Shown here piece after piece: positions 55,767 through 57,662 of a stretch of 64,000 bases of DNA; the stretch's first letter is position 1; each line of letters starts with the position of its first letter. The stretch spans positions 59,458,001 to 59,522,000 of the forward strand of contig OZ024741.1 in NCBI GenBank assembly GCA_964016885.1. The letters run 5' to 3'. The position numbers and the translations under genes were made by a program. The DNA comes from Eledone cirrhosa (taxonomy: Eukaryota). Below the pieces are notes generated by a model. It did no database searches, was not told the DNA's origin, and worked only from the letters and a program-made list of their open reading frames with translations.

Positions 55767-55822
55767 AATATGAGAGACGTAAAATAAGAAAATTATAAAA
55801 TTAACTTACTTACTAAAAAATC

Positions 55823-55905
55823 ACTTCCAACTAATTAGTTTCTGGAATGGAGTAAATATATTTTCCGAAGAAATTTATATAAAATCATTCCGTCATCAGG
55901 AAAGT
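55823..55905 (-). ncRNA. Type I hammerhead ribozyme, family G (inverted unit)
   Basis: Reverse complement of 57348-57430. Confidence 0.8.
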
Positions 55906-56297
55906 CTTTTTCCGTATAGGTCTCCAGGCATAGCGAGGACACTGGAAACTTATTAAAAAAATAATTCAGTGGAATGGAAATAGCGATGCGAGGACTGGAT
56001 TCCAAGCCATTGAGAAAATCACTGCCTCTACGTCCGTGGCAAATGCAAAAAGAATCAATCACGTGACATCGAGGTCAATCAGTGGAAAGCGAGTGGTTAT
56101 TAAGACAGCGGCCAGCTTACTACCATAGTAGCATTCATGGCCAAATATTGCTCGACAAATATTGCTCGGACGTAGAGGCAGTGATTTTCTCAATGGCTTG
56201 GAATCCAGTCCTCGCATCGCTATTTCCATTCCACTGAATTATTATTTTAATAAGTTTCCAGTGTCCTCGCTATGCCTGGAGACCTATACGGAAAAAG

Positions 56298-56380
56298 ACT
56301 TTCCTGATGACGGATTGATTTTCTATAAATTTCTTCGGAAAATATATTTACTCCATTCCAGAAACTAATTAGTTGGAAGT
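56298..56380 (+). ncRNA. Type I hammerhead ribozyme, family G unit 1
   Basis: ACTTTC-CTGATGA-[c ggattg…tttc TTCG gaaa…cattcc a]-GAAA-CTAATTAG-TT-GGAAGT. Confidence 0.78.
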
Positions 56381-56822
56381 GATTTTTTAGTAAGTAAGTT
56401 AATTTTATAATTTTCTTATTTTACGTCTCTCATATTATTGTTCTGCAACCCCATGCATTGAACCACATTGTTACTAAGACAAAACCTATATATTTGCTAG
56501 GATTGATATGCATCTGTGTGTATATAAATGTTACTAGATATAAATTCCTTATAATTATCTCCAATTCATTTGTCGAGCAATATTTGGCCATGACTGCTAC
56601 TATGGTAGTAAGCTGGCCGCTGTCTTAATAACCACTCGCTTTCCACTGATTGACCTCGATGTCACGTGATTGATTCTTTTTGAATTTGCCACGGACGTAG
56701 AGGCAGTGATTTTCTCAATGGCTTGGAATCCAGTCCTCGCATCGCTATTTCCATTCCACTGAATTATTATTTTAATAAGTTTCCAGTGTCCTCGCTATGC
56801 CTGGAGACCTATACGGAAAAAG

Positions 56823-56905
56823 ACTTTCCTGATGACGGATTGATTTTCTATAAATTTCTTCGGAAAATATATTTACTCCATTCCAGAAACTAATTAGTTG
56901 GAAGT
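56823..56905 (+). ncRNA. Type I hammerhead ribozyme, family G unit 2
   Basis: Identical to unit 1, 525 bp downstream. Confidence 0.78.
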
Positions 56906-57347
56906 GATTTTTTAGTAAGTAAGTTAATTTTATAATTTTCTTATTTTACGTCTCTCATATTATTGTTCTGCAACACCATGCATTGAACCACATTGTTAAT
57001 AAGACAAAACCTATATATTTGTTAGGATTGATATGCATCTGTGTGTATATAAATGTTACTAGATATAAATTCCTTATAATTATCTCCAATTCATTTGTCG
57101 AGCAATATTTGGCCATGACTGCTACTATGGTAGTAAGCTGGCCGCTGTCTTAATAACCACTCGCTTTCCACTGATTGACCTCGATGTCACGTGATTGATT
57201 CTTTTTGAATTTGCCACGGACGTAGAGGCAGTGATTTTCTCAATGGCTTGGAATCCAGTCCTCGCATCGCTATTTCCATTCCACTGAATTATTTTTTTAA
57301 TAAGTTTCCAGTGTCCTCGCTATGCCTGGAGACCTATACGGAAAAAG

Positions 57348-57430
57348 ACTTTCCTGATGACGGAATGATTTTATATAAATTTCTTCGGAAAATATATTTA
57401 CTCCATTCCAGAAACTAATTAGTTGGAAGT
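57348..57430 (+). ncRNA. Type I hammerhead ribozyme, family G unit 3
   Basis: As unit 1 but with a perfect GGAATG/CATTCC stem II base. Confidence 0.82.
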
Positions 57431-57662
57431 AATTTTTTAGTAAGTAAGTTAATTTTATAATTTTCTTATTTTACGTCTCTCATATTATTGTTCTGCAACC
57501 CCATGCATTGAACCACATTGTTAATAAGACAAAACCTATATATTTGCTAGCATTGATATGCATCTGTGTGTATATAAATGTTACTAGATATAAATTCCTT
57601 ATATATATAAATATATATTTATATATATATATATATATATATATAAATATATATTTATATAT

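What the first reader, a model, noticed from the sequence alone, without database searches (positions are those of the whole stretch)
55767..57602. Retrozyme-like array G: exact 525-nt period, HHR with a cUUCGg-capped stem II, 10-nt palindromic stem III and two template variants
Seen: one HHR per unit with a GUU site, the ACTAATTAGT palindrome and a stem II ending in TTTC-TTCG-GAAA. The last direct unit and the inverted unit share variants (GGAATG, TTATATAAAT, ATTTTTTTAA) that differ from units 1 and 2 (GGATTG, TTCTATAAAT, ATTATTTTAA). The two outer ends stop at different unit positions, as expected for a circular or multimeric template. Inference: a 525-nt circular RNA family copied by PLE RT, with both target strands primed on the same variant.
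Basis: partly seen in the sequence, partly recalled or inferred. Interest (0 to 1): 0.8.

Follow-up and report, generated by a model that had tools for sequence, protein, structure and literature searches.

The report
Two-armed ribozyme repeat with Penelope ends
This is one copy of an abundant non-coding repeat with a predicted self-cutting RNA motif, lying as two back-to-back arms that stop at the same two fixed points as other copies, which likely marks copying by a borrowed Penelope-type transposon enzyme, although its unequal units argue against a single RNA circle as the template here.

Summary
An inverted 394-nt arm (55767-56160) joins 2.74 direct units of exactly 525 nt (56167-57603), between (AT)n tracts. 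Each unit has a type I hammerhead motif (GUU site, 10-nt palindromic stem III).

Two inferences change. First, the outer ends are not signs of circular permutation. Other family copies run into (AT)n at the same two positions, 117 nt apart. This is the Penelope-like element (PLE) 'tail' pattern, and an ORF-bearing Hydra-type PLE in the same window shows it too. Second, two of the three cited shared variants are simply the family-majority allele. Only one site (offset 156) is a derived allele shared by unit 3 and the inverted arm.

The ribozyme-delimited units differ from each other, so one monomer circle does not explain this array without later change. An uncut multimeric RNA, primed from both cut DNA strands, fits best. 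Cleavage, expression, circularity and the helper enzyme are untested.

Verdict: an animal non-LTR retrozyme carrying a PLE insertion footprint; a variant of a known kind; interest 0.42.

The parts
55592..55766 (.). Left (AT)n target tract
   Evidence: TRF period 2, 55592-55771; sequence
55767..56160 (-). Inverted arm, 394 nt (unit offsets 401-524 then 0-269; offset 0 = 56167). Its outer end is the family's proximal end site.
   Evidence: family copies run into (AT)n here
55823..55905 (-). Type I hammerhead motif of the inverted arm (core starts at 55899)
56142..56168 (+). Arm junction: 14-nt tandem duplication of the inverted arm's inner end, leaving a 6-nt filler (56161-56166) and a 2-nt CG overlap with the direct arm
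56167..56691 (+). Direct unit 1 (5'-truncated inner end at offset 0); derived alleles at offsets 77, 148, 334 shared with unit 2
56298..56380 (+). Hammerhead 1: stem I 56298-56303/56375-56380, core 56304-56310, stem II 56311-56360 (UUCG 56334-56337), palindromic stem III 56364-56373, predicted cut after 56374
56692..57216 (+). Direct unit 2, with hammerhead 2 at 56823-56905 (predicted cut after 56899)
57217..57603 (+). Direct unit 3 (387 nt), with hammerhead 3 at 57348-57430. Its outer end is the family's distal end site. Shares the derived offset-156 allele with the inverted arm.
57487..57603 (+). 117-nt 'tail' between the two end sites, present only on the direct arm; predicted long hairpin (z -3.2 for 57480-57603)
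57604..59842 (.). Right (AT)n target tract

Best explanation
Array G is one insertion of a non-coding 525-nt hammerhead repeat (an animal non-LTR retrozyme), likely written into an (AT)n tract by a borrowed Penelope-like reverse transcriptase/endonuclease that primed both cut DNA strands on one likely uncut, multi-unit RNA. Steps: (1) Inferred: a source array is transcribed as a multimer whose units differ slightly. (2) Inferred from published PLE biochemistry: the enzyme cuts both strands of (AT)n and starts copying at two fixed internal sites of the 3'-most unit, offsets 386 and 269, which flank a hairpin. (3) Shown as structure: one strand copied 1437 nt through three hammerheads, the other 394 nt through one. 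(4) Inferred: the two cDNA ends were joined by slippage and microhomology, giving the 14-nt duplication. (5) Each arm has since gained about 0.3% private changes. The hammerhead probably needs a dimer to cut, and the copied RNA was uncut or religated at these sites.
For: Fixed ends; 17 X1 contigs leave the unit into (AT)n at 56435, and 2 X1 plus 1 X6 contigs at 56553, the equivalents of this locus's left and right ends; 67 X1, 73 X2 and 5 X5 contigs, and 229 of 239 X12 reads covering 55767, carry the letter of copies that run on into (AT)n there; 10, 15 and 2 contigs continue into the tail instead. The rough chance that both ends fall within 2 nt of the two sites is 2e-4 (post hoc), although the unit holds 10 TATA and 9 ATAT words. 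Internal control: the PLE at about 9335-12760 (RT plus C-terminal GIY-YIG; atlas hits carry RVT_1, GIY-YIG and HTH_animal; CxCX5C linker as described for the (TA)n-targeting Hydra clade, PMC8557442) has its inverted arm ending 95 nt after its CUGA and its direct arm about 190 nt after it. Two more two-armed inserts show tails of about 160 and 170 nt. In vitro, a PLE protein cuts and extends both strands, starts at two internal sites, and mainly uses uncut RNA (PMC11167929). One event: all four arms share an allele at offset 45 that essentially no X1/X2 contig has. Unequal template units: offset 156 is A in unit 3 and the inverted arm, but C in units 1 and 2 and in the family (all X1/X2 depth; 127 of 157 X12 reads). 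The switch between allele sets lies between unit 2 offset 334 and unit 3 offset 77, away from the cleavage site (offset 208).
Against: No helper was identified: the unit has no sequence similarity to the PLEs in this window (blastn and nhmmer), and no genome was available. The case for unequal template units rests on one site (156); conversion between the arms or homoplasy could produce it. The three alleles shared by units 1 and 2 may come from a later local duplication (lineage counts 4 and 5 per 525 vs 3 per 781; P 0.15 and 0.05), so the original direct arm may have been 1.74 units. Only 24 of 275 loose ends and 21 of 180 were shown, so further end sites may exist. The tail (117 nt) is longer than the published 30-40 nt. 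One X1 contig joins the two end sites head to head, and G's inverted arm stops 15 nt short of the distal site; both suit a circle. No RNA evidence of any kind.
Confidence: 0.57

Rival explanations
1. Same PLE-driven two-ended insertion, but the template was a 525-nt monomer circle copied round and round. The unit differences arose later by mutation, local duplication of one unit, and conversion between arms.
For: The period is exact, with no scars at unit joints, and RT passed the cleavage sites. The monomer is predicted to be structured (z -3.7). At another locus, one X1 contig (depth 7, 50 letters on the short side) joins 56433 to 56550 on opposite strands, so its two arms would add up to one monomer (the same join appears as a loose end). 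G's inverted arm stops at offset 401, near the distal site. Unit 1/2 alleles at 148 and 334 break pairs and are rare in the family, as expected of later DNA mutation. Circles are shown for coral, mussel and axolotl retrozymes (PMC7229834).
Against: It needs offset 156 to revert in units 1 and 2 without the neighbouring locus alleles at 161 and 162 changing, or to arise twice. Published PLE insertion mainly used uncut RNA (PMC11167929). The head-to-head join is one contig, and protein bound at the start site of the next unit could stall copying at the same place on a linear multimer.
Confidence: 0.27
2. The unit is the pseudo-LTR (3' end) of an ORF-bearing PLE, amplified in place, and not an independently moving retrozyme.
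For: Fixed ends, an inverted 5' arm, (TA)n target and PLE-type hammerhead are all pLTR features (PMC8557442, PMC4209133). Read depth peaks just upstream of the proximal end and in the tail, as for many 5'-truncated copies or other families sharing this end. Li et al. 2026 propose local tandem amplification from pLTRs.
Against: No ORF in the unit or next to it. Coverage continues across the end-to-start joint at 56553/56554 in X1, X4 and X11 (no listed contig has 31 letters on both sides). The inverted arm, which local tandem duplication would not create, itself reads from offset 269 back past offset 0 into 524-401, so its template already had the 525 period.
Confidence: 0.11
3. An ordinary satellite, inverted by DNA repair or by an assembly chimera.
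For: The junction shows a templated insertion typical of microhomology repair. No read was seen to span the junction.
Against: Both outer ends coincide with family end sites in other samples. The arms are asymmetric and carry private differences, unlike a fold-back chimera. The same layout recurs three more times in the window. The junction is not expected in runs that lack this locus's private alleles.
Confidence: 0.05

Closest known systems
Animal non-LTR retrozymes (Cervera and de la Pena 2020, PMC7229834: passages and Discussion read; Li, Clavereau and Pollet 2026, 10.64898/2026.07.22.740005: main text read)
   Same: Non-coding tandem units, one type I hammerhead each, GC 35%; unit size within the 51-972 bp range of Li et al.; coexists with PLEs, the proposed helpers.
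   Different: Inverted second arm, two fixed ends with a tail and a (TA)n target. The word 'inverted' occurs 0 times in PMC7229834 and only in a reference title in the preprint and in review PMC7761336. The unit is longer than the 170-400 nt circles shown. No RNA or cleavage data here.
Penelope-like elements, Hydra clade (Craig et al. 2021, PMC8557442: passages; Arkhipova et al. 2013, PMC3846280: passages)
   Same: Partial tandems, an inverted 5'-truncated copy, a tail at one end only, hammerhead near the 3' end, insertion in (TA)n.
   Different: No ORF; period 525 nt rather than kilobases; tail 117 nt rather than 30-40 nt; the junction is a slippage join, not a palindrome.
Poseidon PAc of Anolis (Frangieh et al. 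2024, PMC11167929: main text read)
   Same: Two internal RT start sites bounding a tail, AT-rich targets, both strands extended, uncut RNA used.
   Different: PAc is autonomous, and its start sites are close together and not homologous to the target. Here both ends overlap the target by a few A/T bases.
PLE-type hammerheads (Cervera and de la Pena 2014, PMC4209133: Results and Discussion read)
   Same: Palindromic helix III suited to dimers, an extra nucleotide after position 9, a larger helix II.
   Different: A second extra nucleotide before G12, giving C.A at the base of stem II (U.U in most other window HHRs); a 50-nt stem II with a UUCG loop; a GUU site.
Non-autonomous Chlamys derivatives such as MRC1 (PMC8557442, passage)
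   Same: ORF-less PLE derivatives forming multicopy head-to-tail insertions.
   Different: Green algae; most Chlamys elements lack canonical hammerheads.

Membership tests
Animal non-LTR retrozyme | Two or more consecutive tandem units each with a type I hammerhead | tested here: met
   3 direct units with cores, stems I and III; 0 of 5000 shuffles; not an Rfam hit
Animal non-LTR retrozyme | No coding capacity, low GC, a few hundred bp | tested here: met
   Stops in all six frames; GC 0.35; 525 nt
Animal non-LTR retrozyme | Dispersed multicopy family | tested here: met
   1856 X1 contigs laid on one unit, at 80-100% identity; also present in runs of organisms B and C. Copy number not derivable.
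Animal non-LTR retrozyme | Self-cleavage (monomer or dimer) | not testable with these tools
   Monomer stem III hairpin +1.5 kcal/mol vs intermolecular duplex -9.0; the active fold is 2.5-3 kcal/mol above the MFE
Animal non-LTR retrozyme | Expression as linear and circular monomer RNA | not testable with these tools
   No RNA holder listed
Type I hammerhead (canonical/PLE) | G10.1-C11.1 pair adjoining the core | tested here: inconclusive
   A G-C pair opens stem II, but an unpaired C precedes it and an unpaired A follows it; effect on catalysis unknown
PLE insertion footprint | Inverted 5'-truncated copy next to a direct partial tandem | tested here: met
PLE insertion footprint | Two fixed 3' ends with an optional tail | tested here: met
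   tail 117 nt, longer than published
PLE insertion footprint (Hydra clade) | Insertion in (TA)n | tested here: met
   a TSD cannot be discerned in (AT)n
Autonomous PLE / pLTR of one | RT plus GIY-YIG ORF linked to the repeat | tested here: not met
   None at this locus; other loci could not be examined
Non-autonomous PLE derivative | Sequence shared with the 3' end of an autonomous PLE | tested here: inconclusive
   No match within the 64-kb window; no genome held

The most novel reading that the evidence does not exclude
The family replicates as a 525-nt RNA circle on which a Hydra-clade PLE dimer primes both DNA strands at two fixed sites. Each cDNA can then be blocked by the other's primer, so some insertions are exactly one monomer split into a 120-nt and a 405-nt arm. 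The contig that joins the two start sites head to head, and G's inverted arm stopping 15 nt before the distal site, would be a direct genomic footprint of circular-template twin priming, a step proposed in print but not shown in the papers I read.
Probability: 0.25. Interest if true: 0.72.

Novelty: new variant of a known kind. Interest (0 to 1): 0.42.

Why it matters
Which enzyme moves animal retrozymes, and whether it copies circles or uncut multimers, is open; published support is co-occurrence and pLTR similarity. An ORF-less hammerhead repeat with the same two-ended, fixed-start, (TA)n footprint as Hydra-type PLEs beside it is mechanistic evidence for the PLE helper. It also defines the likely cis element (offsets 269-386) for an in vitro test. 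This locus adds a caution: different arm ends do not indicate circularity, and its unequal units point to a multimeric template. The value of this one copy is moderate, because many unchecked scan notes report the same layout for other unit sizes in this genome.

Tried and rejected
No whole genome is held, so copy number, end statistics and ORF linkage were not counted. Rfam: no hammerhead hit; the weak miRNA and snoRNA hits are below gathering scores and were treated as chance. No RNA holder listed. Run X5 is small and its kind is not on record, so it was not used as expression evidence. Its 587-nt contig (about 90% alike) shows a go-back joint that I could not resolve. An exact 21-nt hammerhead motif found 0 metagenome contigs. 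A scan-findings look-up by place and by sequence found nothing. Pfam gave 0 families for 3 of 3 PLE ORFs, and PDB gave 0; PLE identity rests on motifs and the atlas. RNA-editing marks, suggested by earlier notes: among listed locus-wide differences from the family, only 56518 is A-to-G in RNA sense (102 rows hidden), so editing is not supported here. Covariation could not be counted: no relative loci were obtainable. L1-type twin priming, where the inverted arm starts where the direct arm stops, is rejected for this locus: offsets 269 vs 0. Fold-back self-priming is rejected: the junction is not a palindrome. The polarity of offsets 283, 307 and 330 rests on two-of-three units, not on family data. 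The tail hairpin is significant only for the unit-3 alleles (z -3.2; unit 1 z -1.1). Lunse et al. 2017 on PLE hammerhead variants is not held (only its title seen) and may already cover the stem II mismatch. Supplements of PMC8557442 and of the 2026 preprint were not seen.

Full report
Anatomy. The element spans 55767-57603 between (AT)n tracts. A direct array of 2.74 units with an exact, gap-free 525-nt period runs 56167-57603, and an inverted 394-nt arm lies at 55767-56160. Offsets below count from 56167. The inverted arm covers 401-524 and 0-269, and the direct arm ends at 386. The arms are head to head, with the RNA 3' ends facing outward. Their junction carries a 14-nt duplication of the inverted arm's inner end and a 2-nt overlap with the direct arm, which looks like a slippage and microhomology join (inference). 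The unit has stops in all six frames and 35% GC.

Ribozyme. Each unit has CUGAUGA, a 50-nt stem II, GAA, the palindrome ACUAAUUAGU, U17 and a 6-bp stem I that closes the ends, so it is type I with a GUU site. None of 5000 shuffles gave such a hit. Rfam does not detect it. The palindrome is unstable as a hairpin (+1.5 kcal/mol) and stable as an intermolecular duplex (-9.0), which fits the dimer model for PLE and retrozyme hammerheads (PMC4209133). Palindromic stem III is not special to G: 11 motifs in the window pass a palindrome-requiring scan, 4 of them in G, and a lone motif at 60435 also has a 10-nt palindrome and GUU. The UUCG cap is predicted only for the unit-3/inverted alleles. An unpaired C and A flank the base of stem II, and most other window motifs have U.U there. 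The extra base after position 9 is published (PMC4209133); I did not find the second one in what I read. In the displayed family rows the only core position that varies is N7 (56308; 55895). Cleavage is untested.

The ends are fixed. I laid public contigs and reads on one unit. Family copies run into (AT)n at 56435 (17 X1 contigs) and at 56553 (2 X1, 1 X6), the equivalents of this locus's two outer ends (24 of 275 loose ends shown). On the inverted arm, 67 X1, 73 X2 and 5 X5 contigs, and 229 of 239 X12 reads at 55767, show the letter of copies continuing into (AT)n. Another 10, 15 and 2 contigs continue into the unit instead (21 of 180 loose ends shown). The different ends are therefore two family-wide start sites 117 nt apart, not random entry points on a circle. 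The stretch between them is predicted to form a long hairpin in unit 3 (z -3.2). This matches the PLE 'tail', described as 30-40 nt and present at one end only (PMC8557442, PMC3846280), and shown in vitro to lie between two internal RT start sites of an enzyme that cuts and extends both strands (PMC11167929).

Internal control. [quoted passage not shown] Both have a CxCX5C linker, which PMC8557442 gives for the Hydra clade, whose families almost all insert in (TA)n and carry hammerheads. The PLE at about 9335-12760 has G's layout: the inverted arm ends 95 nt after CUGA and the direct arm about 190 nt after it. Inserts at 16396-17710 and 24846-26767 show the same pattern, with tails of about 160 and 170 nt. 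G has no sequence similarity to any of them, so the helper link is by architecture only. The host is an animal, probably a cephalopod mollusc (from unchecked scan notes and my recall; not tested).

The variants. Ten sites vary among the four arms. I compared them with the family majority. Units 1 and 2 share derived alleles at 77, 148 and 334. Unit 3 and the inverted arm share one derived allele, at 156 (family C in all X1/X2 depth and in 127 of 157 X12 reads). Private alleles are 214 (unit 3), 427 and 516 (inverted arm), and, by a two-of-three rule, 283 and 330 (unit 2) and 307 (unit 1). That is 6 in 1831 nt, or 0.33%. All four arms share an allele at 45 that the family lacks, so this is one event. 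The inverted arm's 401-524 part differs from unit 2 only by its two private alleles, so it fits the same RNA. The unit 1/2 alleles at 148 and 334 break pairs in stem II and in the tail hairpin, and are nearly absent from the family (at 148, 396 of 399 X11 reads carry the other base).

Template. Cut at the ribozyme sites, the successive monomers carry different allele sets, and the switch falls between unit 2 offset 334 and unit 3 offset 77, not at the cut site (208). A monomer circle would give identical units and a dimer circle alternating ones; neither fits without later change. A linear uncut multimer fits directly and agrees with the report that uncut RNA is the main PLE substrate (PMC11167929). 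The limits are real. Units 1 and 2 could be a later local duplication (P 0.15 and 0.05). That leaves site 156 as the only evidence of template heterogeneity, and conversion between the arms could explain it. Two points favour circles. One X1 contig joins 56433 to 56550 on opposite strands (depth 7), that is, the two start sites head to head with arms that would sum to one monomer. And G's inverted arm stops 15 nt before the distal site. Protein bound at the next unit's start site would do the same on a linear multimer. I put the linear multimer at 0.57, the circle at 0.27, a pLTR amplified in place at 0.11 and artefact or repair at 0.05.

Shown versus inferred. Shown: period, layout, hammerhead motif, fixed family ends, allele polarity, and the same layout in neighbouring PLEs. 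Inferred: PLE helper, two-strand priming, template form, dimer cleavage. Untested: cleavage, expression, circularity.

Relation to what is known. The element meets the sequence definition of an animal non-LTR retrozyme (PMC7229834; preprint 10.64898/2026.07.22.740005, which already argues that these derive from PLEs) and carries the insertion footprint known for PLEs. In seven literature searches and term look-ups in three retrozyme papers, I found no description of two-armed retrozyme insertions with fixed PLE-type ends, and no cephalopod retrozyme. The library lacks most subscription papers, and supplements were not seen. Unchecked scan notes report the same layout for 310, 450, 465-469 and 591-592 nt units in this genome; they are not independent evidence. 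Several of them favour circles from identical or edited units, which this older locus does not show. Verdict: a real feature, a new variant of a known kind, interest 0.42.

Noticed in passing
window 9335-12760 (ORF 10826-12397, -): 5'-truncated PLE with RT, CxCX5C linker (Hydra-clade motif) and GIY-YIG; hammerheads at 9525 (-) and 12659 (+); inverted arm about 360 nt; tail about 95 nt. A related copy lies at 1-2410 (hammerhead 2314).
   Followed up: partly
window 7294-8533 and 19743-21519: Second PLE family (about 48% identical in RT), present as a large inverted pair enclosing other inserts; asparagine-rich linker.
   Followed up: partly
window 16396-17710, 13012-13711, 24846-26767: Further two-armed, ORF-less inserts in (AT)n with tails of about 160-170 nt. 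No hammerhead passed my scans there.
   Followed up: partly
window 18297-19672 (-): Three copies of about 360 nt, each with a small hammerhead (18468, 18964, 19485), separated by (AT)n: probably repeated insertions or a duplicated insertion.
   Followed up: no
window 8810 (-), 36301 (+), 60435 (+), 63960 (-): Lone hammerhead-like motifs. Nearly all hammerheads in the window have an unpaired U.U (in G, C.A) at the base of stem II; the one at 60435 has a 10-nt palindromic stem III and a GUU site like G.
   Followed up: no
window 54476-55591 (also 52091-52692, 35045-35245, 4867-5120): A 460-bp repeat family ending in the (AT)n tract that hosts G; no hammerhead core found.
   Followed up: no
run X1, joint 56433/56550: One contig joins the family's two end sites on opposite strands, as if one monomer were split into two arms at another locus.
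   Followed up: partly
unit 56409-56546 and 56644-56686: Several-fold higher read depth with divergent loose ends; other subfamilies may share these segments, and one could be the autonomous partner.
   Followed up: no
window 41875-49819, 61184-63435: Decayed LINE-type ORF fragments (endonuclease and RT-like) and a 198-bp repeat family at 41394-41786, 45045, 60673.
   Followed up: no
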